Assembly: GCA_951406725.2 (NCBI GenBank)
Contig: OX597815.1
Location: 60,884,001-60,948,000 of the forward strand
DNA length: 64,000 nucleotides
Direction of reading: 5' to 3'
From: Octopus vulgaris
Taxonomy: Eukaryota
Shown: positions 4,649-48,880 of the stretch, piece by piece
How positions within the stretch are numbered: position 1 is the stretch's first letter
Layout of the letters: each line of letters opens with the position of its first letter
Made by a program: the position numbers and the translations under genes
Notes under the pieces: model-generated
The model's input: only the letters and a program-made list of their open reading frames with translations
The model's database searches: none
Told to the model about the DNA's origin: nothing

Positions 4649-6030
4649 TGAGAAAGTTGGTGTGTGAAAGCACGTTGTTGAATATATAAAAAATAGTAAA
4701 AATGGAAAAAACTACAGAAGACTTGTTTTAAAAGGTTAAAAAATATATATTTGAGTCATTATGTCAGAAGAATGTTATAAATTTTTTTTCATACAGTGAC
4801 ATAGTTTTTGAAGAAATTACCGGTTTCGTGTTAACTTTTCAAATTTCTCAAAACATTGTGTTATGATTTCGTTAAGAAGTGTAAAGGAGAGTTCCAGGTA
4901 AGGGGAGGTAATAAGTGATTTCTTCCGGTGTAAGGGAGATAATCGCTTTATATTTCTTGCCTTTTTTATTTTTACTTAATGGGGTGAATTTCTCTGTATA
5001 AGAATGTTAGAGTGGTTAAGTTTGGGCTTATATTTTTCCATGAAGAATGTTTCCTTGTTTAGTCTAATTTGTGTTGGTGTTCCAATAGCACATTGATAAA
5101 ATGGAAAGATTAAAAATTTTGGTAGTAGTTGCTTTGCGCATTTCTCAATATGCTCACTAAAGGGTATCATTCTGTATTCTGGGAATGCAATCTGTTGTCG
5201 ATGCAGTGTGCATCTACGTCTGAGTGATAGTCCCGTGGACCCACGTAGTTTTGGTGGCAGCCCGAGCATCTTATGACATAAATTATGTTTTCAGAGGCAC
5301 AAGTAAAATTAAATTTGATCTTGAATTTTTGTCCCTCTTTGAAGAGGAATTCTGATCCTTCTATAAGGTTTGGGCATGTTGCACAGTTTGGTCTACCACA
5401 TTTTTTTACTTTTGCATCCGTAATTTCAGAAAGCAATTTTGCCTTTGTGAGAATCTTTTTAAGTGGTTTAGGTTGTAGCTTTTAATGATTTTATGTATGT
5501 TTAGAATTTCCTTTAATTTGGGGTCCTTATGAAGTATTGGTAAATTCTGGGTGATGATGGTGAAGGCTTCTTTGTTTCTGGGGTTGTATGTGGATATGTA
5601 AGGCAGTATTTTCGGGGAAGGTGTGTTGTTGTGTTGAACTTTTCTCAAAGTTTCTATGTCGATTTCTGTTGCACGTCTGATCCCATCCTCTATGAGTTGA
5701 GCTGGGTAGTGTCTGTCAATTAGGGTGTTTTTGAGTTCTTGTAGTCTAAAGTTCCTGGTATTTTGTTCTGACACTATTGTGCATATCCTTCTTGCAAGGT
5801 TGAAAGGGATGTTTGTTTTAGTGTTTCTTGGGTGGCATGAATCAAAAAGTAGGTATTGTTTGGCGTCTGTGGCTTTGTAAAAAATATCTGTTTCTATTTT
5901 AAGGTTAATTTTTTTTAAAATTAGTATATCTAAGAATGGGAGCTGCCTTTTGTTGTATTCCATTGTGAACTGTATATTTAGGTTGATGCTGTTCAATAGG
6001 TTTTTGAATTTTAGGAGTTTATCTGTGTTT
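4647..6030 (-). mobile_element. Penelope-like element (Neptune-like) 3' part: RT thumb plus GIY-YIG endonuclease, frameshifted
   Basis: FTME...LPFLDI...YKATD..QYL.FDSCHP, CGRPNCATC linker, FTCASENIIYVIRCSGC..YVG; degenerate HHR (GAAACCGGUA) near 4815-4880. Confidence 0.9.
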
Positions 6031-6355
6031 TCATTCCAGACAACTCATATAAACAAAATTACACCCAACATTTTTTAGCCCGGGACCAGAGACACCAGGA
6101 CACAGACTGGAACCTAGTAATAAGGAAAAACCGAAGATAATCAACCTTTCAACCAAACTTCTATCTAACATAAAAATTGACATCCTCTCAAAAGGGCTCA
6201 AATTTACGCCAACTCCACGCAGAGACAACCTAAATGAAATCAAGGATAATATAACAGAATTTTGCAGAAAATTAAGACTAGCAGAAGCATCAACCAGTTT
6301 CAATATTGAAGATGAATCACTAGTCAAGAACAAAAGTGAACACATCCCCCACAAT
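6031..6355 (+). mobile_element. inverted N-terminal segment of a Penelope-like ORF
   Basis: Plus strand reads KIINLSTKLLSNIKIDILSKGLKFTPTP...ITEFCRKLRL, the conserved PLE N-terminal INLS/KGLxF motif. Confidence 0.8.
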
Positions 6356-6645
6356 TGTTTCACTATCAATAAATTACGTAATTTTACTTACGCAACTTAT
6401 CTGTAGATCGTCAGTGTGATCCTCTTTGCACGATATGATTTGTAGAACTACACGCCAGATATCAACACGAGGTCGAAAATGCATGTAGTTCCACCTATTA
6501 TATTTGCGGTTATTTTTAAAACTCCTTGCTCGCTTACGTTTCTGGTGTGCTAAATTTTCTGGAGAACAATTCTTAGTGGTTGAGACCATAGTGGATCTTC
6601 TTCTAGCGTAAGGGTTTCCACATAGTGGTTCCCACTTATATTTAC

Positions 6646-6708
<63 letters not shown>

Positions 6709-7058
6709 CATGTCATATTTTCCGTTGTCTTTTTATTTAATCCTGAAAATATTATTTATGTAATGCACGCACTCATTAATTATGTGTGTGTGTGTGTGTG
6801 TACATAAGGTAATGTACACATGTACATAATGTAATGTATGTATGTATGTATACATTAGCTCCTCCTTTGCTGAACCTTAGCCCGATCTTCTCTGCATTTT
6901 GTTTCAGTGAAGTTGTCAGCTCCTGCAGACCTGTACTGCTTTCTGCAATTAATTCGATATCATCAGGACATTAAAGATCGTTCAGCTTTGCCTGCCATCT
7001 CTATAGTATTCCATGGTTGTATATGCATACGCATACACACACACGCGCGTGCGCGCGC

Positions 7059-7093
<35 letters not shown>

Positions 7094-17511: not shown

Positions 17512-19004
17512 ATAAAACGGTAAGATAACAAATGTGAGCATGGGTTCATATGATGGGGCAGGCATCTGTGATCTAATTGGACTTTTTCTCCTAGATACCT
17601 TAGGTAAGACATTCCCTAATGTACATTTCGCCATCTACAAAGATGATGCCCTCGCCTTAACAGCTAATACAAATGGACCAGCACAAGATCGTTTTAGGAA
17701 AGATATTATCCAGTTAATGAAACACTTTGGACTTAGTATAACTATAGATACTAACCTGACGGTTGTCAATTTCTTAGACGTTTCCTTAGATCTTAATAAG
17801 AATATTTATAAGCCTTATAGGAAGCCCAATGATAGACTAAGTTATATTAATGTAGGTTCATGCCATCCCCCTATAGTATTCAAAAATTTAGTTTAAAATA
17901 TTAGTAAGAGGATTTCTAGCCTCTCATCTAATGAGGACATCTTCAATAGCGTTGCCCCAGTTTATAATAAGGCTTTAAAAGATAGTGGTTTTAGCGAAAA
18001 AATAAAATATACACCTATCACTAGCCCAACAGTAAGGAAAAGGAATAATAGAAATAGTTAGGTCATCTGGTTTACGCCCCCTTACTCACCCGAGGTGGCC
18101 TTCAATATAGGTAAATATTTCCTAGCACTGATAGATAGACATTTTCCAGTTAACCATACTTATAGGAAACTCTTCAATAGACACAATTTAAAAATTAGTT
18201 TTAGTTCAACTACCAATTGTAAAAACATAATCAAACATAACATACAAAAAACACAAGAAGAAAACAGCTGTTCATGCAGGAATAAAGAATTGTGCCCGCT
18301 AAATGGAGCTTGCATGTCCAAGACCATCATATATGAAGCTACCGTAAACTCTATAACTACTAAAGACACCGTTTCGACGAAGAAATACGTGGGCCTTACA
18401 GAGGGTAATTTCAATGCCAGGTTCAATAACCACACTTTGAGCTTTAGGCACTGGAACAAAAGAAAAGCGACACAATTATCTAATCATATTTGGTCTTTAA
18501 GAGATAAAGGTGTCGAATATAACATACAATGGAAGATTTTGGCCAGATGTAAGCCCTATACTAACGGCAGCGGAAGGTGCGGTCTATGCGACATGGAGAG
18601 ATGGCTTATCTGGAAAAGCAGCTTAGACCCTACTACATGTCTAAATACAAGGACAGAGCTTTTCGGATCATGCCCACATGTGACTAAATTTCTGTTACGT
18701 TTTTGGTCCCCTAAAGAAAACAGATAGAACATGCTTTCTGTGTTATGTCCCAAGAAGAATTTATATATTTTTATATATTTTTATATATTTTTTATGTATT
18801 TTTATATAATTTTTATGACGAAAAATGCGAGCGATGTATAAGTAGGCAGGCAAGCAGAGTTATAACAGAGTAATTTCCCTTTATTTAACGGTATTTTTTC
18901 ATAACGTTTTCAAATAGCCAGATAACCGAAGAGATGGTGTTGTGGATTTCCACTTCGGCATCTGAAACTCAGAGTTTTATCTTGACTACCGAGTAATGTA
19001 ACAT

Positions 19005-21265: not shown

Positions 21266-21543
21266 TGTGTGTGTGTGAGAGAGAGAGAGAGAGAATTAAT
21301 ATGTGCGTATATATGACTGTCAATACGAATATGTGTTATATATATATATATATATTATATAAAAGGGCTTAGTAAAATAAATTACTTTGCCGCATACTGA
21401 ACTCATTAGAAATAGCAGCTAAAAAACTTTTTTAAAGCTATTTCTAATACTTAAAGAAAATCTCTCTCGTATAGTGTTTGCTTAACTCAACTCACAAAAG
21501 TTTGGGGGTAAGGACATCAAAAAATCAAATGCAAAGGTTATTT

Positions 21544-21594
21544 GAGAACGTACGTTTCAAGATTAGTCAAAACGACACTTCTATCATCAGCTCA
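21544..21594 (-). ncRNA. type I hammerhead ribozyme (left arm)
   Basis: ugag-CUGAUGA-uaga...ucuu-GAAA-CGUACG-UU-cuca. Confidence 0.8.
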
Positions 21595-22438
21595 GAAACT
21601 CCTTGGTTTGGATTTGAAAACACTGAATGTAAGAACATACCCTTTCGGCTTCTCATCGCTTTCGAAGATCTGTTCGTAACTAACAGTGCCAACAAACTCA
21701 AATAAGCAAGCGAAGAATTTCTGTTCTCCCCTTTCCACCAGCGTGGGTTAAAATCATCAAACACTATGCTTATTTCGGTAAAATCCGAAGCATTAATTAG
21801 AGGGAGATTAATTATAATTTCAACAATTGAGGGTAAAATTAATTAATTATTCATCAATTTCACCAAGTGTTCAGTATGCAAAGGGACCATTTAAGGCGAA
21901 TTCAAATTATTACATTATATAAAAGGGCTTAGTAAAATAAATTACTTTGCCGCATACTGAACTCATTAGAAATAGCAGCTAAAAAACTTTTTTAAAGCTA
22001 TTTCTAATACTTAAAGAAAATCTCTCTCGTATAGTGTTTGCTTAACTCAACTCACTGCTATTTCTAATGAGTTCAGTATGCGGCAAAGTAATTTATTTTA
22101 CTAAGCCCTTTTATATAATGTAATAATTTGAATTCGCCTTAAATGGTCCCTTTGCATACTGAACACTTGGTGAAATTGATGAATAATTAATTAATTTTAC
22201 CCTCAATTGTTGAAATTATAATTAATCTCCCTCTAATTAATGCTTCGGATTTTACCGAAATACGCATAGTGTTTGATGATTTTAACCCACGCTGGTGGAA
22301 AGGGGAGAACAGAAATTCTTCGCTTGCTTATTTGAGTTTGTTGGCACTGTTAGTTACGAACAGATCTTCGAAAGCGATGAGAAGCCGAAAGGGTATGTTC
22401 TTACTTTCAGTGTTTTCAAATCCAAACCAAGGAGTTTC

Positions 22439-22490
22439 TGAGCTGATGATAGAAGTGTCGTTTTGACTAATCTTGAAACGTACGTTCTCA
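22439..22490 (+). ncRNA. type I hammerhead ribozyme (right arm)
   Basis: ugag-CUGAUGA-uaga...ucuu-GAAA-CGUACG-UU-cuca. Confidence 0.8.
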
Positions 22491-22776
22491 AATAACCTTT
22501 GCATTTGATTTTTTGATGTCCTTACCCCCAAACTTTTGTGAGTTGAGTTAAGCAAACACTATACGAGAGAGATTTTCTTTAAGTATTAGAAATAGCTTTA
22601 AAAAAGTTTTTTAGCTGCTATTTCTAATGAGTTCAGTATGCGGCAAAGTAATTTATTTTACTAAGCCCTTTTATATAATGTAATAATTTGAATTCGCCTT
22701 AAATGGTCCCTTTGCATACTGAACACTTGGTGAAATTGATGAATAATTAATTAATTTTACCCTCAATTGTTGAAAT

Positions 22777-22811
<35 letters not shown>

Positions 22812-26306: not shown

Positions 26307-26364
26307 ATATATATATATATATATATAAATCACATAAATTTCACATAAAAATCACATAAAAACA

Positions 26365-27235
26365 CATAAAAATCAACATACCCTTTAACCTAGCAAAAAG
26401 AATCTGCACCACAGTTTCCGATACATACTCTCGAGAACATAGAGTCCTTGAACGTAGATCTACACTAACTAAAAGACATTACCCAATCTCATTAGTAAAT
26501 GAAGGCATCAAAAGAGCTAAGGAAATAGATATACAAAGGTTAAGGAAAACTAGCCGAAATGCTAAACAAGACTTTAAAATACTCCCGTACATTTCCACAC
26601 ACAACCCCAGAAACAACGAAGCCTTCAACATCATCACACAAAACCTTCCCATCCTCACAGCAGACAGAACAATGAACGAAAATTTAAGCTCATATAAAAT
26701 TATAAAAAGTAAAAAGCAAACGAAGTCACTGAAAATAATATTAACCAGCGCTAGACTGTATCCACCGACAACAGAGCCAAAAGTGACAAAATGTAGTCGT
26801 TCTAACTGCGGAACATGCCCCACCTTCTGGGGGGTTCAGAATTCCAATTCAAACAAGGAGAAATATTTAAGATCAAATCAAATTTCACCTGCGCCTCAGT
26901 AAATGTATGTAATCTATGTCATGCATAATCTATGACATGCTTAGGATATGGTAAACTCTATTTTGGACAAACAGGAATTTCGCTCCGTCAAAGAATCACC
27001 ATTCACAAAGAACAAATCCGTCACCCACAATACAGACAGTTAAAGGTGAGTGCACACATAGAAAGATGTGCCAGGAATCTTAATCCCAATTTCCAAATAT
27101 TTCCCTTTTACCAATGTTCACAGAACACCACATTGCAACAAAGGTTGAATAAAGAGGCATTTTTCATCAACAAATTTCTCCCCCAACTAAACATGGACAC
27201 ACAACTCAATACAGAACATCACTAACTCATTATAT
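26365..27235 (+). mobile_element. Neptune-like PLE fragment (thumb plus GIY-YIG)
   Basis: INIPFNLAKRICT...ILPYISTHNP...CSRSNCGTC...YFGQTG..LRQRI..H; same family as 7143-8138. Confidence 0.9.
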
Positions 27236-27249
27236 TTTAACCGCGAGAA

Positions 27250-28012
27250 CCGAGGCAGTATGACCGAGAGAAATGAATTATAATATCAACAATTGAGGGT
27301 AAAATTAATTAATTAATCAATTTCACCAAGTGTTCAGTATGTAAAAGGACCATTTAAGGCGAATTCAAAATATTACATTATATAATTAGGGCTTAGTAAA
27401 ATAAATTACTTTGCCACATACTGAACTTAGTAGAAATAGCAGCTAAAAAAAATTTTTTTTTAGCCATTTCTACTACTTAAAGAAAATTTCTCTCAGATAA
27501 TGTTTACTCCAGACAGCTCACGAAGGTTTGGAGGTAAATACAGAAAAATATCACAAGTACATAGATCGTTTGAGTACGTCAACGTTTCAAGATTTGCCAA
27601 ATATAATGTTTGCTAGAGAGACCACGTGGGTGGAAAGGGAGTGCAGAAATTTACGCCTGCGCATTTTGAATTTGTTGACACTGTTAGTTGGAGTGGTTCA
27701 TCTGAAGCGACAAGTTCGCTGATAGGTAAAGTTCCTTCTTTTTAGTGTTTCCAAATCCAAATTAAGAAATTTTGAGCTGACGAAAGAAATGCTGATTTTA
27801 TTTGGCTAATCTTGAAACGTTGACGTACTCAAACGATCTATGTACTTGTGATATTTTTCTGTATTTACCTCCAAACATTCGTGAGCTGTCTGGAGTAAAC
27901 ATTATCTGAGAGAAATTTTCTTTAAGTAGTAGAAATGGCTAAAAAAAATTTTTTTGGGCTGCTATTTCTACTAAGTTCAGTATGTGGCAAAGTAATTTAT
28001 TTTACTAAGCCC

Positions 28013-28020
<8 letters not shown>
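27250..28020. mobile_element. second, diverged copy of the 560-bp HHR family, also a foldback
   Basis: 27380-27602 is the reverse complement of 27798-28020; segments align by eye with 21355-22779; ends in (TA)n. Confidence 0.88.
27771..27833 (+). ncRNA. type I hammerhead ribozyme, intact
   Basis: uuugag-CUGACGA-aaga...ucuu-GAAA-CGU ug ACG-UA-cucaaa; predicted cleavage after 27827. Confidence 0.92.
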
Positions 28021-28094
<74 letters not shown>

Positions 28095-28593: not shown

Positions 28594-29404
28594 CATCATC
28601 ATCATCATTATTATTATTATTAGCTGTCTGTCTGTCTGTGAGTGAGCGACCAAATAAAGAATACAGTAAAGAGCTGACAGTGTGAGTAGATGGAACAATG
28701 AGAGAGGATATGAATAATAGAGAGTAGCAGTGTAAACGAGAGAAAGAAAGAGAGAGAGAGAGAGATTAAGAAGATACGAGAAGGGGCAGAGAGTGTGAAT
28801 AAGAGAGAAAGGGAGAGGGTGAATTAGAAAACTAATAGAAACACAAGTTGAGATGTAAAGTTTTTCCTGTAAACAGATCAAATAACTGTGTTCGGAGTAG
28901 ATTCCCATGGCATTTCATTTTCATATTGTGATACACTATCTTTAAGCACACCAGTAAACATTACTGACTACTTGTGTGTGTGTGTGTGTGTGTAGCTGTC
29001 TGTGTGCGTACGTAGGTACACACACACACACACACACACACATATATGCATATACACAATTACATTTTAAGTGCGTATATGTATATATTCATAGAAATAG
29101 AAATATGTAGCCGTTGTTTACTGTTGTTTTAAACATACTTTATCACAAAAATATATGCGTACGTAACACTCCTGCCTACACAGGTAGACACGCACGCATA
29201 CGTACACACGCGCGCACACACACACACATACACATATTCTGGTGTGTCTTTATTTTTGTGTAAACACACAAACTATAGTATTCACACACAGCCACGCACA
29301 TGTACACACGTGTATACATACCTACATACATACATAAAACCACACATGCATATACATACCCCCCCCCCACACACACACACAAACACACACATATATATAT
29401 ATAT

Positions 29405-29812
29405 ATATCTGTAAATATAGTATGGGACCATTATTCGGTAGCCATGATAAAACTCCAAGTTTCGGATGTCAGGGTGAAAAGCCACACCTCCATCTCTACA
29501 GTTATCCAGCCACCGAAAAAAATGCTACGAAAATGACCAGTCAGTTAGCAGTCATTCTAATAGCTCTTTTGTTTTAATAACGGCAAATAACGCAGTAATT
29601 TCCCTTTGTTTAGCGGTCATTTTTATAGCATTTTTCGATGACCGGATAACTGAAGAGATGGCGGCGTGGGTTTCCGCCCCGATATCCGAAACTCGGAGTT
29701 TTATCATGGGTACCGACTAATTGTCATATATTATATTTACAGATAAATTCCTCTATTTACATAATATCGAGGTCTTTTTTATTCTTTTGTTGTCTTACCA
29801 TTTCTATCAATA
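29405..29812. mobile_element. solo inverted pLTR pair of the Hydra-PLE family with two HHRs (29446-29506 minus, 29645-29705 plus)
   Basis: gauaa-CUGAAGA-gau...auc-c-GAAA-CUCGGAG-UU-uuauc; homologous to 18865-19008 and 61500-61800; (TA)n flanks. Confidence 0.85.
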
Positions 29813-31508: not shown

Positions 31509-33452
31509 AACGGGAAGGTTTACGAAAATAAACAAAAGACGAAGACAGGTGGAGTACAAACAAACAAATGTATTAGTATGGCACTCCGGAATAGAAATAG
31601 AACAAGTCTTTTACGTTACGAGCCTACGTTATTCGACAGAAAGATACACAGAAAAAAAACAAGGAGAGAAAAAAAATGCGTGTAGGAGCTAACGGTCTAT
31701 CATGGCGTTCTGACTTCAGGCAGAAGTCAGAGGTCAGAGGTCAGACGTTAGACGCTAGAGGGATAGTAGGGGAGATAACAGGGTCAAGTGACTTCCAAAA
31801 CGAAGGTGGCCCCCAACACGAAGGTGCGTGTGTGTATAAGAGAGTATGTATGTGAGTGTGAAAGAGGGCTGGTGGTCTGGACGTGTGTATGTATATATGT
31901 GTGGGTGTGGAGATATGGGGATGGGTGTGTGGGTGGTGTGTTGTGATGTATAGGTGTAAAGATGTGGGGATGGGTGTGTGGGCAGTGTGCTGTGGGTGGT
32001 GTGTTATGATGTGATGTGTAATGTCGTATGGTGTAGTGTAGTGTGGTGTGATGTTGTGGGGAGGTGGGGGTGAGAGTGGTGAAAGCCCATGTGGGGTGTG
32101 GGTTCGGCTGGGGATTGGGGTGGTGTTGTGGGGAGAGAAGAGAGAGGAGGGGAGAGGAGGAGGTGGGAGAGAGAAGGAGGGAGAGGAGGAGAAGGAGAAA
32201 AGGAGAGAGGGGGTTGAGGGGGAGAGAGGAGGGGGAGGGGAGGGGAGATAAAGGGAGTGAGGGAGCAGAGAGAAAGAGAGAAGGGGAAGAGGAAAGAAGA
32301 AAGAAGAAGAGGGAAGAAGGGGGAAGAAGGGAAAGAAGGGAAGAGGAGGGAAAGAGAGTAGGGGTGAAAAGATGAAGGACTGAAGAGAAGTAGGAGTCGG
32401 GGGGAGGTTAGATGAAAAGGGGGAGAGTTGAGCCCAAATGGCGCAAAAGAGCGAAGAGAGAAGATTAATCCCTGTTCACGGCGCAAGCGGGAATCCGGAT
32501 GGCCTCTGCAAGGACAATCCGAACACAGACAGGTGTTGCAAGGAGTGACCGGTGGAGCGGAAATGGCGTGAGACTGGTGTGTCATTGGCGAGGCGGATGT
32601 CTCGGAGGTGTTCCGCGAACCGGTCAGCCAAGTGCGTCCCGTTTGTCCGATGTACAGGGAATGGCAGAGAGAGCAGGAGATGCAATAGATGATATTGCTG
32701 GAGGTGCAGGTGAAGGAGTCGATGATGCGATGGGTGCCGGTGAGGAGGGTGGTGTTAGAGAGGTAAGGGCAAGTGCGGTAACGTGGGCGGGAGCAGGGGA
32801 ACGAGTCAGGTTGGGAGGTAGGGTCAGGGAAGAAGCTGTGGACCAAGAGGTCTCGTAGGTTATGGGCTCGTTTGAAGGAGGGGAGGGGTCGGTTAGGGAA
32901 GAGGTGTGAAGTGGACGAGTTGGACTGGAGATGCCGGAAAGCTCGAAGAATGATGCGTTGGAGAGGTAGGGTCGTGGGGGTGGTAAGTGAGGGGGAAAAG
33001 GGAGGCGGGAGACTGCAGGGCGGGTTCGGGGGGAGAGAGCAGATGCACGGTCTACGGAACGTGCTCTGGCAAGGGCGGTGTGGATAGTGGTGAGGGGTAT
33101 CCACGTAGGATGAAGTAGCGAGCCATGAGTTGAGACTGAGTCTCAAAGTCATGGTCGTCACTACAGAGCCTATGTAGACGGAGGAATTGGGAATAGGGGA
33201 TGGAAAGCTTGATGTGTTTGGGGTGGGAGGAAGAGAAGTTGATGTATGAATGTGAGTCTGTGTTTGTAGTGGATGGAGGCGGTAAGAGTGGAGTGATGAA
33301 TGCTGACCGAAATGTCGAGGAAGGAGACAGAGGTGTTGGAGATAGTGCTGGTGAAGTGGAGGGCAGGATGGAAGGATTGAATGAAAGAGAGGAAGGAGTC
33401 TAGATGTTCACGGGAGAGTGAGGTGGCACCGATAATGTCGTCAATGTAACGA

Positions 33453-33455
<3 letters not shown>
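31509..33455 (-). mobile_element. Neptune-like PLE (RT C-half plus GIY-YIG, pyrimidine-rich 3' region, pLTR)
   Basis: GRYIDDI..., SFLDISV, FSSSHP, PCSRPRYRTC, FTCTSSNIIYCISCSLC..LYIGQTG; degenerate HHR at 31607-31644 (CUGUCGA...GUAACGUA); (TA)n flanks. Confidence 0.9.
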
Positions 33456-33491
<36 letters not shown>

Positions 33492-33498
<7 letters not shown>

Positions 33499-34219
33499 AT
33501 CGCTATTTACTAACTAACTATAAATCTATATTAATAAAAATTGATATATATATATTTAGATAAATATGAAATGATTTCAATATCCTCCATCCCTATATAA
33601 GATACTAAAATTTATTGGAATCCTTTGGAAAAAAACTATCTAAAGGATATTTATTTAAAATCACAAGCAGGATATGGCTGTTAAATGGTTAAGAACATTT
33701 GTAATCTCGAGAGCATTAGTAGTCTCTATTCTCCCTACCCCAATAGCTTCAGCCTGCTAACTTTAGCTAAAATACATTCAAATATGCCAAAGTTAAATTC
33801 CTCATAATGGGGTTGGATTTATGGCTTTGACATTTATACTACCCCTTCCTCTATGTATAAATAGAAAAAAATTCTCATTTGTCTCCATTGAACCAAATAA
33901 GAAACCCCCTCCCCATTGATAAATCTAAATAACAAAATGAACTCAGTGACAAAATATCTGCCTATAGGGAAGGACCTTCTACTACCATGTTCTTAATGAT
34001 GAAATTAACCTCTCTGTCTATATATCTACCCTCTTTGTAATGTTGGCAAATGGAATAAGTATAAAAATGTACATTGTCTACTTAATTAAAAAATTCTATA
34101 TGTGGCTGAAGATTGCTCTACATTTTAAAACTGATGTAATGCTTGCATTGTTTAATAAAATGAAGTAGCATGAAACGATTGTACTACACTACCTTAGATA
34201 TCCTTGTTGCTTATTTTGA

Positions 34220-35483: not shown

Positions 35484-35544
35484 AAAGACAATAGCCTGAG
35501 AAAGCCAACAGTGAAGACAATAGCCTGAGAAAGCCAACAGTGAA
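35484..35544. repeat. 29-bp tandem duplication
   Basis: aagacaatagcctgagaaagccaacagtg occurs twice. Confidence 0.9.
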
Positions 35545-36722: not shown

Positions 36723-36727
<5 letters not shown>

Positions 36728-38190
36728 AAATAAGCAACAAGGATATCCAGAGGTAATGCAGTACGATCGTTTTCATGCGACTCCATTTGATTGAACAATG
36801 CAAGTATTACATCAGTTTTAAAATGTAGAGCAATCTTCAGCTGCATAAAAGTATAGAATTTAGTTAAATTTAAAAGATTCAACGTAAAGTATAATAGCCA
36901 TCTCAATATGGCTAACCACTGTAGCTTTTAGCCCCAGGAGATCATCGTCTCCAGCTGGCTTTAGGCACACTATCTGTGCTCTTATGGTATTTGCAAAGGG
37001 AGGTCATCCCTCTCTCGTCAGCCTAAAGTGATACGCACGGACCGCAGTTTCGAGGTATTTGCCTCTTGTCAACGCACGGTAATCACCGGTTTACGATGAA
37101 AAGGAAGACCTGTTTGCAAATACTTAAGTGTTTTTCTAGTAACTTCCGTCACTGATTTCGAAAAACTGTCTGCAAGCAATAATAAATCTCTGAACGAGAT
37201 GTAAACAGTAACCGCTCGACAACGTAAAGTATAATAGCCATCTCAATAAAAGATTCAGTTTTATAGTTATTCTATTAACCAAAATCACTACGAGGGTAAG
37301 TAGGTAGACAGAGAACAAGTTTCATCAGCAATATCATAGTAGTAACTGATATTTTTTTCCATGAAGACACTGCTTATCATTGATTTTACTTTGTTATTTA
37401 GATTTATTAGCATATAGAAAATATATGAAATTTTTAACATATTCCTTTAATTTAACTCATTAATACCAATAAATTACTATTTTCTAATTAACTATAAATT
37501 TATATTAAATTGGTATAGAAACTTTTATAAATTTGAAATTATTTCTATATTCTCCATCCCTATATTGTGTAAAATATTGAAATTATTCTGATTCTTTGAA
37601 AAACTCTCTAAAATGTACGTATTTATTTCAAATTACCATTGGGATTATGGCTGTCAAATAGTTAAGTATTATAAGTTTTTACTCTCCCTACCCCATCAGC
37701 TTTAGCCTGCTAATTTTGGCTGAAATATATTCATACTGGACCCAAATGGTTTCTACTTCAAAGGGATCTTGATTTATGGCTCTGCCACTTAAACAGTCTT
37801 TTTCTCTATTCATAAAAGATAAACTCTTGGTTTCCACTAGACCTGATAAACTAGTCTATAAACTTAAACCCCCTTCTCCAGTAGTAAATCTAAATAACAA
37901 AATAAAATCAATGATAAGCAGTGTCTTCATGGAAAAAAATATCAGTTACTATTATGATATTGCTAATGAAACTTATTCTCTGTCTACCTACTTACCCTCT
38001 TTGTGATTTTGGTTAATGGAATAACTATAAAAATGAATCTTTTAAATTTAACTAATTTCTATATTTTTATGCAGCTGAAGATTGCTCTACATTTTAAAAC
38101 TCATGTAATACTTGCATTGTTCAATTAAATGGAGTCGCATGAAAACGATCGTACTGCATTACCTCTGAATATTCATGTTGCTTATTTTGA
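36723..38190. mobile_element. foldback HHR element with a nested insertion
   Basis: 36723-36881 plus 37258-37405 is the reverse complement of about 37885-38190. HHRs at 36756-36846 (minus) and 38069-38159 (plus): augcag-CUGAAGA-uugc...gcau-GAAAA-CGAUCG-UA-cugcau. Confidence 0.88.
36882..37246 (-). mobile_element. 340-bp-period terminally redundant insert with degenerate HHR and 11-bp TSD
   Basis: TSD taaaagattca (36871-36881, 37247-37257); 29-bp direct repeat at 36880-36908 and 37220-37248; HHR at 37035-37077 (UUGACAA-gagg..ccuc-GAAA-CUGCG-GUC). Confidence 0.85.
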
Positions 38191-38290
38191 TTATAATCAC
38201 CCCATTTTGAATTATATGAATAATACCATACAAAATTCTGGTACTTTTAACTTAAGTACCATACTCAACTGAATCTAAACTTTTACTGAA

Positions 38291-48611: not shown

Positions 48612-48880
48612 GTTATTATTATCATTATTCAGGTCACTGCCTGGAATCGAACTTGAGGTTAGTAGTCCGCGCTCTTAACCACTACGTCATATAACAGCGA
48701 AAAATACTTTAGGAATGAGAACCCAGGTTCGAAATTTCCCCCAAGACACCTGATGAAGGCTGGGGGTATATCAGCCGAAACGCTGTGTTAACAAGAAACA
48801 AGATGAGGACAAATATCTGTCAATTGTAAATAATGTAAATGATGTACATAATTCCTCATCTCTTAAATATAGAACTGTAT
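48375..48880. mobile_element. tRNA-headed HHR element with an inverted second arm
   Basis: Minus strand reads tRNA-like head 48692-48630, (AAT)n, then a body with HHR 48489-48444. An inverted body copy at 48693-48845 carries HHR 48745-48789. Confidence 0.85.

What the first reader, a model, noticed from the sequence alone, without database searches (positions are those of the whole stretch)
36871..37257. 340-bp terminally redundant ribozyme insert, with the empty site preserved in the opposite arm
Seen: an insert flanked by an 11-bp TSD, starting and ending with the same 29 bp (period 340), carrying a decayed HHR. The opposite arm (about 38021-38050, reverse complement) shows the uninterrupted target. 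Inferred: reverse transcription of a circular or tandem 340-nt RNA slightly more than once around, which is the footprint expected of a retrozyme; its size fits described metazoan ones.
Basis: partly seen in the sequence, partly recalled or inferred. Interest (0 to 1): 0.75.

Follow-up and report, generated by a model that had tools for sequence, protein, structure and literature searches.

The report
Solo hammerhead retrozyme, Penelope-style insertion
This is one copy of an abundant non-coding jumping repeat that carries a nearly intact hammerhead (predicted self-cutting RNA) motif and was likely written into the genome by a borrowed Penelope-type enzyme running just over once round an RNA ring; such elements are known in other animals, and the ring and the cutting are untested here.

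Summary
The anatomy is confirmed: a 365-bp insert between exact 11-bp TSDs, a 29-bp direct repeat at period 340 (25 nt plus 2-nt junction overlaps), and the empty site at 38034-38044. Two corrections. (1) The hammerhead (minus strand, 37072-37040) is not simply decayed. It is a canonical Schistosoma-type type I motif with a compensated U3-A8 core, which most copies in DNA run X2 share; this copy's clear lesion is the loop-III palindrome. (2) Starts are not freely permuted: in 3 of 3 runs many copies stop at 37174/5 against mixed A/T-rich flanks, as with Penelope internal initiation. This copy starts 46-48 nt away, across a predicted hairpin. The host arms carry their own Penelope-type hammerhead motif. 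Best reading: a dead-end solo copy of a non-LTR retrozyme, likely inserted by Penelope-type target-primed reverse transcription, one lap round a circle. An uncleaved tandem transcript would leave the same footprint. Circle, cleavage and arrays were not shown. The scan noted similar ~360-bp elements elsewhere in this genome (unchecked notes; a sequence look-up found no look-alike). New member of a known kind.

The parts
36871..36881 (.). Left target-site duplication (11 bp); its last 2 nt overlap the unit (likely priming microhomology)
36882..37246 (-). Insert proper, 365 bp = one 340-bp unit plus 25 nt; non-coding, 43.8% GC; the RNA strand is inferred to be minus because it carries the hammerhead
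36880..36908 (.). First copy of the 29-bp direct repeat; inferred start of this copy's cDNA
37220..37248 (.). Second copy of the 29-bp direct repeat; inferred end of the cDNA after one lap
37247..37257 (.). Right target-site duplication (11 bp); its first 2 nt overlap the unit
37040..37072 (-). Type I hammerhead core: U3-A8 covariant core; helix II of 4 bp with loop CAAAUA; helix III of 2 bp with a tetraloop that is non-palindromic here and palindromic in most other copies; predicted cut between 37040 and 37039
   Evidence: PMC2632901; PMC4209133
37073..37128 (-). 5' arm of helix I (6 bp), internal loop ending in C37079, and predicted long extension
36981..37039 (-). 3' arm of helix I, internal-loop U37033, and predicted long extension that would bring the ends of a cut monomer together
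37173..37218 (-). Predicted RNA hairpin. The family's preferred boundary (37174/5) lies at one foot and this copy's start (37220-37222 in register) at the other; candidate Penelope-type 'tail'
   Evidence: PMC11167929
36724..37409 (-). Left arm of the host element (interrupted by the insert); it follows a (TA)n run
36756..36846 (-). Penelope-type hammerhead-like motif of the host's left arm: 6-bp helix I, CUGAAGA, 59-nt domain II, palindromic tetraloop, one extra A in the GAAA run
   Evidence: pattern match; no Rfam support
37410..37881 (.). Host spacer, 472 bp, no ORF; about 70% like window 33494-34219
37882..38191 (+). Right (inverted) arm of the host element, with the mirror hammerhead-like motif at about 38069-38159
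38034..38044 (-). Empty target site: a single copy of the 11-mer in the opposite arm

Best explanation
The insert is a single 1.07-unit copy of a high-copy, non-coding 340-360-nt repeat with a canonical type I hammerhead, i.e. a non-LTR retrozyme, likely pasted in by a Penelope-type enzyme that copied a probably circular monomer RNA just over once round. Shown: the TSD, the redundancy, the empty site, the hammerhead anatomy, a multi-copy family and its preferred boundary. Inferred steps: (1) a master copy with two ribozymes is transcribed and cut to a monomer; (2) the long helix I holds the cut ends together and a host ligase closes the ring; (3) a Penelope GIY-YIG endonuclease nicks A/T-rich DNA, and the 3' end primes inside the RNA beside the 37173-37218 hairpin, usually at 37174/5 and here at 37220-37222 through a 2-nt match; (4) the RT passes the ribozyme site without a scar, completes the lap, and stalls 25 nt into its own RNA:cDNA hybrid; (5) the second strand joins through another 2-nt match, and an 11-nt stagger gives the TSD. 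With one ribozyme, this copy would be a dead end. My confidence that it is a Penelope-mobilised retrozyme copy at all is about 0.85; the figure given is for the circular template.
For: Anatomy. The hammerhead has the helix sizes that PMC4209133 calls canonical (6, 4 and 1-2 bp with a palindromic loop). It also has the three tertiary-contact bases of the Schistosoma ribozyme named in PMC2632901: internal-loop U, internal-loop C and the 3' A of CAAAUA. Loop III is palindromic in 88%, 97% and 80% of depth in X2, X17 and X18 (37043). The minus strand folds at z -4.7 as a linear RNA and z -5.0 as a circle, against -2.8 for the plus strand. In the long helix I, 5 pairs had both partners listed as variable; 3 of the 5 variant combinations form new Watson-Crick pairs (unphased). 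The family is large: 6,394-7,082 contigs were laid on the 1,141-bp stretch (insert plus host) in DNA runs of two organism labels, and 1,743 on the unit alone in X2. Overlapping pieces from other copies cover the whole unit, including the 37248-to-36918 link. Preferred boundary: loose ends before 37174 in 39 contigs of X2 (median 139 nt, agreement 0.46, A/T-rich), and at 37174/5 in 5 contigs of X17 and 7 of X18. This matches the fixed internal starts and A/T-rich targets shown for a Penelope-like protein (PMC11167929). One X2 contig leaves the unit at 37175 from the other side, as an exact one-lap copy would (record 24). More-than-unit copying of a circle was proposed in PMC4209133 and PMC7229834. 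Penelope-like ORF remnants lie in the window.
Against: No circle, strand, cleavage or array was observed: all laid runs are contigs, and 'RNA' is the tool's guess. In vitro, the one Penelope-like protein studied used mainly unprocessed RNA and did not need hammerhead cleavage (PMC11167929), which favours a linear multimer. No listed contig shows two hammerheads in tandem. Of 22 variant rows at paired or facing positions of helix I, 10 break a pair or leave a mismatch when taken singly; 4 of these are halves of the compensating pairs. A second family start at 37220-37224 is not established: the loose ends before 36884 (34 contigs in X1, 46 in X4) share 16 letters and look like a sister variant. 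The 46-48-nt gap exceeds the 30-40-nt tail described for Penelopes. Only 18 of 242 loose-end rows were shown and 24 of 931. The terminal redundancy is why this copy was picked, so it cannot count as a frequency.
Confidence: 0.47

Rival explanations
1. Same family and same Penelope-type enzyme, but the template was a linear, uncleaved tandem transcript. RT started internally in one unit and was truncated by chance 25 nt into the next.
For: It gives the same footprint, with no scar at the ribozyme site. PMC11167929 found unprocessed RNA to be the dominant substrate in vitro and no reads ending at the cut site. Hammerheads with a weak helix III cleave poorly as monomers (PMC4209133). Eight of nine Xenopus dimers did not cleave in vitro (bioRxiv 10.64898/2026.07.22.740005).
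Against: A random stop falls within about 45 nt past a lap only about one time in eight, though this copy was selected for it. One more contig ends at exactly one lap. Canonical hammerheads in coral and mussel cleave efficiently, and their RNAs accumulate as circles and linear monomers (PMC7229834).
Confidence: 0.3
2. The insertion was first a longer tandem (2.07 or more units) and was later reduced to 1.07 units by recombination or slippage between units, keeping the TSD.
For: Retrozymes usually occur as dimers to multimers (PMC7229834), and collapse would leave exactly this anatomy.
Against: No allele or orthologue with more units was seen, though no listed contig spans the locus. It still needs the same start and stop points.
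Confidence: 0.1
3. The unit is an internally deleted autonomous Penelope-like element, a rare by-product whose terminal repeat is shared with an ORF-bearing parent.
For: Preferred boundary, 11-bp TSD and three opposite-strand joints in X2 (one contig each) are Penelope traits. Summed depth falls steeply over 37065-37140. One contig each in X17 and X18 leaves the unit just upstream of the hammerhead, at 37071. Xenopus retrozymes match Penelope terminal repeats.
Against: No stop-free frame is longer than about 57 codons, and tblastx finds no match to the window's Penelope remnants. The hammerhead is canonical, not the minimal type of metazoan Penelopes. The low-depth part is the 5' arm of helix I and pairs with the high-depth part, so it belongs to the structure. 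Pieces from several runs and two organism labels cover it.
Confidence: 0.1
4. A DNA-level accident or assembly artefact: a fragment captured during break repair with a local duplication.
For: 2-nt matches at both junctions also occur in repair-mediated insertions. No listed contig spans the locus.
Against: An exact 11-bp TSD defined independently by the empty arm; the empty junction also seen in contigs of X4 and X10; and a whole-unit-plus-25 length that keeps a complete ribozyme fold.
Confidence: 0.03

Closest known systems
Metazoan non-LTR retrozymes (Cervera and de la Pena 2020, PMC7229834; mussel repeats of 350-390 bp)
   Same: Canonical type I hammerhead, unit within 150-450 bp, GC under 45%, no ORF, TSD longer than 4 bp, strongly self-paired RNA, coexistence with Penelope-like elements.
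   Different: Solo copy of 1.07 units with one ribozyme; U3-A8 core; family with a mapped preferred boundary; circle and cleavage not shown.
Animal retrozymes as non-autonomous Penelope derivatives (Li, Clavereau and Pollet, bioRxiv 10.64898/2026.07.22.740005)
   Same: Monomers are common and treated as non-transposing offspring; Penelope dependence is proposed.
   Different: That study covers vertebrates plus four invertebrates and argues from co-occurrence and phylogeny. Here the link comes from insertion anatomy, and no parent Penelope was identified.
Endonuclease-bearing Penelope-like elements: internal initiation and 'tail' (PMC11167929; PMC3846280; PMC8557442)
   Same: Fixed internal boundary downstream of the ribozyme cut, A/T-rich flanks, TSD of similar size (8-10 bp in the rotifer examples), two possible starts around a stem-loop, inverted joints.
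   Different: No RT-endonuclease ORF; canonical rather than minimal hammerhead; gap between the two points is 46-48 nt rather than 30-40.
Schistosoma mansoni tertiary-stabilised type I hammerhead (as described in PMC2632901)
   Same: Loop II CAAAUA and an internal loop in helix I with the contact U and the extrahelical C.
   Different: U3-A8 instead of C3-G8 (a covariation that PMC4209133 reports for a Schistosoma Penelope hammerhead), and a helix I predicted to extend about 55 nt.

Membership tests
Non-LTR retrozyme | Canonical type I hammerhead (helix I 6 bp, II 4 bp, III 1-2 bp, loop contacts) | tested here: met
   against PMC4209133 and PMC2632901; core is the U3-A8 variant; no Rfam hit
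Non-LTR retrozyme | Unit of 150-450 bp, GC under 45-50%, non-coding | tested here: met
   340 bp, 43.8% GC, longest stop-free frame about 57 codons
Non-LTR retrozyme | Multi-copy family; TSD longer than 4 bp when present | tested here: met
Non-LTR retrozyme | Tandem arrays with two or more ribozyme-bearing units (active form) | tested here: inconclusive
   This copy has one ribozyme. Pieces of other copies cover the whole unit and its head-to-tail link, but no listed contig holds two ribozymes. No genome is held.
Non-LTR retrozyme | Expressed as unit-length circular RNA | not testable with these tools
   Only contigs of runs guessed to be RNA; they cannot show strand, ends or circles
Non-LTR retrozyme | Self-cleavage in vitro | not testable with these tools
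   Bench assay needed
Autonomous Penelope-like element | RT plus GIY-YIG ORF between terminal repeats | tested here: not met
   No ORF in the insert; no tblastx match to window remnants; not excluded for other family members
Autonomous Penelope-like element | Minimal hammerhead with enlarged helix II | tested here: not met
   Helix II of the insert is 4 bp; the host arms carry the enlarged type
Penelope-type mobilisation (works like) | Fixed internal reverse-transcription start against A/T-rich flanks | tested here: met
   Loose ends at 37174/5 in 3 of 3 runs; reading them as RT starts is inferred
Penelope-type mobilisation (works like) | Optional 30-40-nt tail between two start sites | tested here: inconclusive
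   This copy starts 46-48 nt from the common boundary; a second family-wide start is not established
Penelope-type mobilisation (works like) | Inverted, partly truncated copies joined to the element | tested here: inconclusive
   3 of 10 joints are opposite-strand, one contig each, at 80% likeness

The most novel reading that the evidence does not exclude
Solo copies of this family are a genomic record of a Penelope reverse transcriptase running exactly one lap round a covalently closed ribozyme RNA, starting at either foot of one hairpin and stalling on its own hybrid. That would make the long-proposed circular intermediate of retrozyme and Penelope transposition countable from a genome alone. 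The family would also be a natural C3-G8 versus U3-A8 experiment: the U3-A8 form dominates the DNA, while a C3-G8 sister dominates the probable RNA runs.
Probability: 0.3. Interest if true: 0.65.

Novelty: new member of a known kind. Interest (0 to 1): 0.4.

Why it matters
How metazoan retrozymes get back into the genome is still a hypothesis: a circular template and a Penelope partner were proposed in PMC4209133 and PMC7229834, and the 2026 preprint adds co-occurrence and phylogeny. This family joins a canonical retrozyme hammerhead to the fixed-boundary signature that PMC11167929 tied to Penelope internal initiation, and this copy has a clean internal control in the empty opposite arm. A census of start and stop points in an assembly could separate circle from linear multimer. 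On its own, one copy is an ordinary member of a described class.

Tried and rejected
Rfam: no hammerhead in the insert at E<=10; the 150 rows shown of 254 for the whole window were microsatellite-driven matches below their gathering scores. No genome is held, so copies could not be counted or aligned. Exact-pattern scans found nothing: a 21-nt motif in metagenome, genome and viral contigs and a degenerate hammerhead pattern in metagenomes. No second copy of the insert lies in the window. No run on record as RNA was listed; this is no evidence either way. Pfam named none of 6 Penelope-like fragments, and a seventh ORF (not Penelope-like) had only a sub-threshold zf-RVT hit. The Atlas gave GIY-YIG (23% of members) and HTH_animal leads for two fragments, one below the recognition threshold. 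I first read the core as decayed and dropped that once positions 3 and 8 were seen to covary. I first read the loose ends before 36884 as a second fixed end and dropped that because they share 16 letters. A family end at about 37010 is not claimed: several pieces stop at 37005-37010, but variants cluster at 37010-37025 and clipping explains it as well. Ends at the cut site 37039 are hinted only in X1 (11 contigs) and not in X2, X4 or X10. A 37039-to-37174 jump is not among the 10 joints. A second CUGACGA at 37021-37015 is chance: two of its letters are minority changes in this copy. Summed depth was not used as a copy number. No paper giving the activity of U3-A8 was found; that it keeps some activity is recalled, not checked.

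Full report
Observation. The 11-mer at 36871-36881 recurs exactly at 37247-37257, and once more, reversed, at 38034-38044 in the opposite arm; these are its only three places in the window. The 29-mer at 36880-36908 recurs exactly 340 bp on (E 1.75e-9). Neither repeat extends further. The 29-mer overlaps each TSD by two bases, so the insert proper is 365 bp: one unit, 25 nt of redundancy, and a 2-nt match at each junction. With the insert removed, the left arm aligns to the right arm without gaps over 310 columns with 16 mismatches. Contigs of runs X4 and X10 also join 36871 to 37248, i.e. show an empty site.

The ribozyme. Rfam does not detect it, but a pattern scan finds a type I hammerhead on the minus strand at 37072-37040. 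It has a 6-bp helix I, a 4-bp helix II and a 2-bp helix III with a tetraloop, the sizes PMC4209133 gives for canonical metazoan hammerheads as opposed to minimal Penelope ones. Loop II is CAAAUA, and helix I has an internal loop with an unpaired U (37033) and a final C (37079). These are the contact bases PMC2632901 names for the Schistosoma ribozyme. The two apparent core lesions are positions 3 and 8, which form a Watson-Crick pair (PMC3884650). Here they read U3-A8, a covariation PMC4209133 reports in Schistosoma. In DNA run X2, 93% of depth at 37067 keeps A8. G8 makes up 65% in X17 and 89% in X18 (2 contigs each, runs only guessed to be RNA), where one contig each also carries C3 and a different upstream arm. 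The clear private lesion of this copy is 37043, which breaks the loop-III palindrome kept by 80-97% of depth in the three runs.

Fold. The minus-strand unit folds at z -4.7; as a circle z is -5.0 against -2.8 for the plus strand (60 shuffles each). Helix I is predicted to extend as 37073-37128 against 36981-37039. Of 27 variant rows that lie in or next to this domain, 22 fall on paired or facing positions. Taken singly, 12 keep or improve pairing and 10 break it or stay mismatched. Five pairs vary on both sides; three of these combinations give new Watson-Crick pairs, one a G-U and one a mismatch. These are unphased, and 17 variant rows were not shown.

The family. Twenty of 24 listed runs hold words of the insert, under four organism labels. 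Laying contigs at 80% likeness placed 7,082 (X1) and 6,394 (X4) on the 1,141-bp stretch of insert plus host, and 1,743 (X2), 124 (X17) and 81 (X18) on one unit. Other copies carry about 18 more bases near 36918, so the usual unit is near 358 nt. Pieces from other copies cover the whole unit, including the link from 37248 back to 36918. The clearest boundary is at 37174/5: 39 contigs in X2 have long (median 139 nt), mixed (agreement 0.46), A/T-rich letters before it, as do 5 in X17 and 7 in X18 (18 of 242 rows shown, and this place was not among the 24 of 931 rows shown). On the ribozyme strand this is the element's 3' boundary, 206 nt past the predicted cut. This copy starts 46-48 nt nearer the cut, and the two points sit at the feet of one predicted hairpin, 37218-37173. 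One X2 contig follows the unit up to 37175 and then leaves it for 913 nt.

The host. The 1.47-kb element has 310-bp inverted arms, a second diverged copy at 33494-34219, and a hammerhead-like motif with a 59-nt domain II near each outer end. Paired hammerheads on opposite strands and inverted terminal repeats are described for Penelope derivatives (PMC4209133, PMC3846280), so the host is probably one. Penelope-like ORF remnants lie in the window (Atlas leads; Pfam silent). An octopus-like source is inferred from the repeat landscape, from one Atlas row type (Mollusca) and from earlier notes; it was not verified.

Mechanism. PMC11167929 showed that a Penelope-like protein cuts A/T-rich DNA and starts reverse transcription at two fixed internal sites downstream of the hammerhead cut, the 30-40 nt between them being the optional tail. 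The boundary at 37174/5 fits this. A cDNA primed at 36881 would run through the ribozyme site without a scar and stop 25 nt after one lap. I favour a closed monomer (0.47): canonical hammerheads of coral and mussel cleave well and accumulate as circles (PMC7229834), the long helix I would hold the ends together, and a stop just past one lap is what an RT meeting its own hybrid would give (inference). But the same in vitro study found unprocessed RNA to be the main template, so a linear multimer remains close (0.30). Array collapse (0.10), a gutted autonomous Penelope (0.10) and artefact (0.03) follow.

Literature seen. PMC7229834: passages and sections 14 and 17. bioRxiv 10.64898/2026.07.22.740005: parts 1-3 of 5, abstract to discussion. 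PMC11167929 and PMC4209133: parts 1-2 of 4. PMC3846280, PMC8557442, PMC2632901, PMC3884650, PMC13282606 and PMC8490949: passages. No supplements were read; those of PMC7229834 (models and sequences) and of the preprint could already show solo copies with short redundancy. Searches listed no paper whose title or abstract start describes a cephalopod retrozyme, and the 2026 Octopus vulgaris repeat annotation has no occurrence of ribozyme, retrozyme or hammerhead in its main text.

Earlier notes of this scan. A sequence look-up found no look-alike. Word look-ups list several ~360-bp hammerhead repeats in this genome, some in arrays, read as Penelope-mobilised retrozymes. They are unchecked, may or may not be this family, and are not counted as support.

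Verdict. Interest 0.40.

Noticed in passing
window 36724-38191 and 33494-34219: The host is itself a very high-copy hammerhead-bearing element with inverted arms. Both arms share an extra A in the GAAA run that the second window copy and many contigs lack, suggesting both arms were copied from one template molecule.
   Followed up: partly
window 37067 and 37071-37072 (runs X17, X18): A sister variant with a C3-G8 core and a different upstream arm dominates two probable RNA runs of different studies but is 7% of depth in DNA run X2; it may be the expressed, active subfamily.
   Followed up: partly
window 37024 (runs X10, X17, X18): Another sister variant continues into a hammerhead with different helix II and III, so several related ribozyme versions share the same downstream region.
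   Followed up: no
window 37174 and 36724-36736: The insert family's common boundary, a short-tailed sister variant and the host's outer end all begin with or contain the same 5-letter motif AAGCA; a possible shared initiation signal.
   Followed up: no
window 36884 (run X17): Two contigs carry, just before this point on the plus strand, letters that read as a YIGET motif like that of GIY-YIG endonucleases; either an insertion into a Penelope ORF or chance.
   Followed up: no
window 21346-22782 and 27266-28022: A young (99% identical arms) direct-plus-inverted element between (TA)n runs with complete hammerhead cores on opposite strands (near 21558 minus and 22475 plus), and a related copy with a core near 27777-27825.
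   Followed up: no
window 29403-29748, 18964, 61678, 48776: Further hammerhead-like motifs, including a self-inverted pair at 29464 (minus) and 29687 (plus) and a well-formed core near 48750-48790.
   Followed up: no
window 5409-6044, 17516-18724, 26360-26899, 33055-33502: Broken Penelope-like ORF remnants, one with a GIY-YIG-like motif; Pfam gave no hit, the Atlas gave GIY-YIG and HTH_animal leads for the two tested.
   Followed up: partly
window 35485-35542: An exact 29-bp tandem duplication, unrelated to the insert.
   Followed up: no
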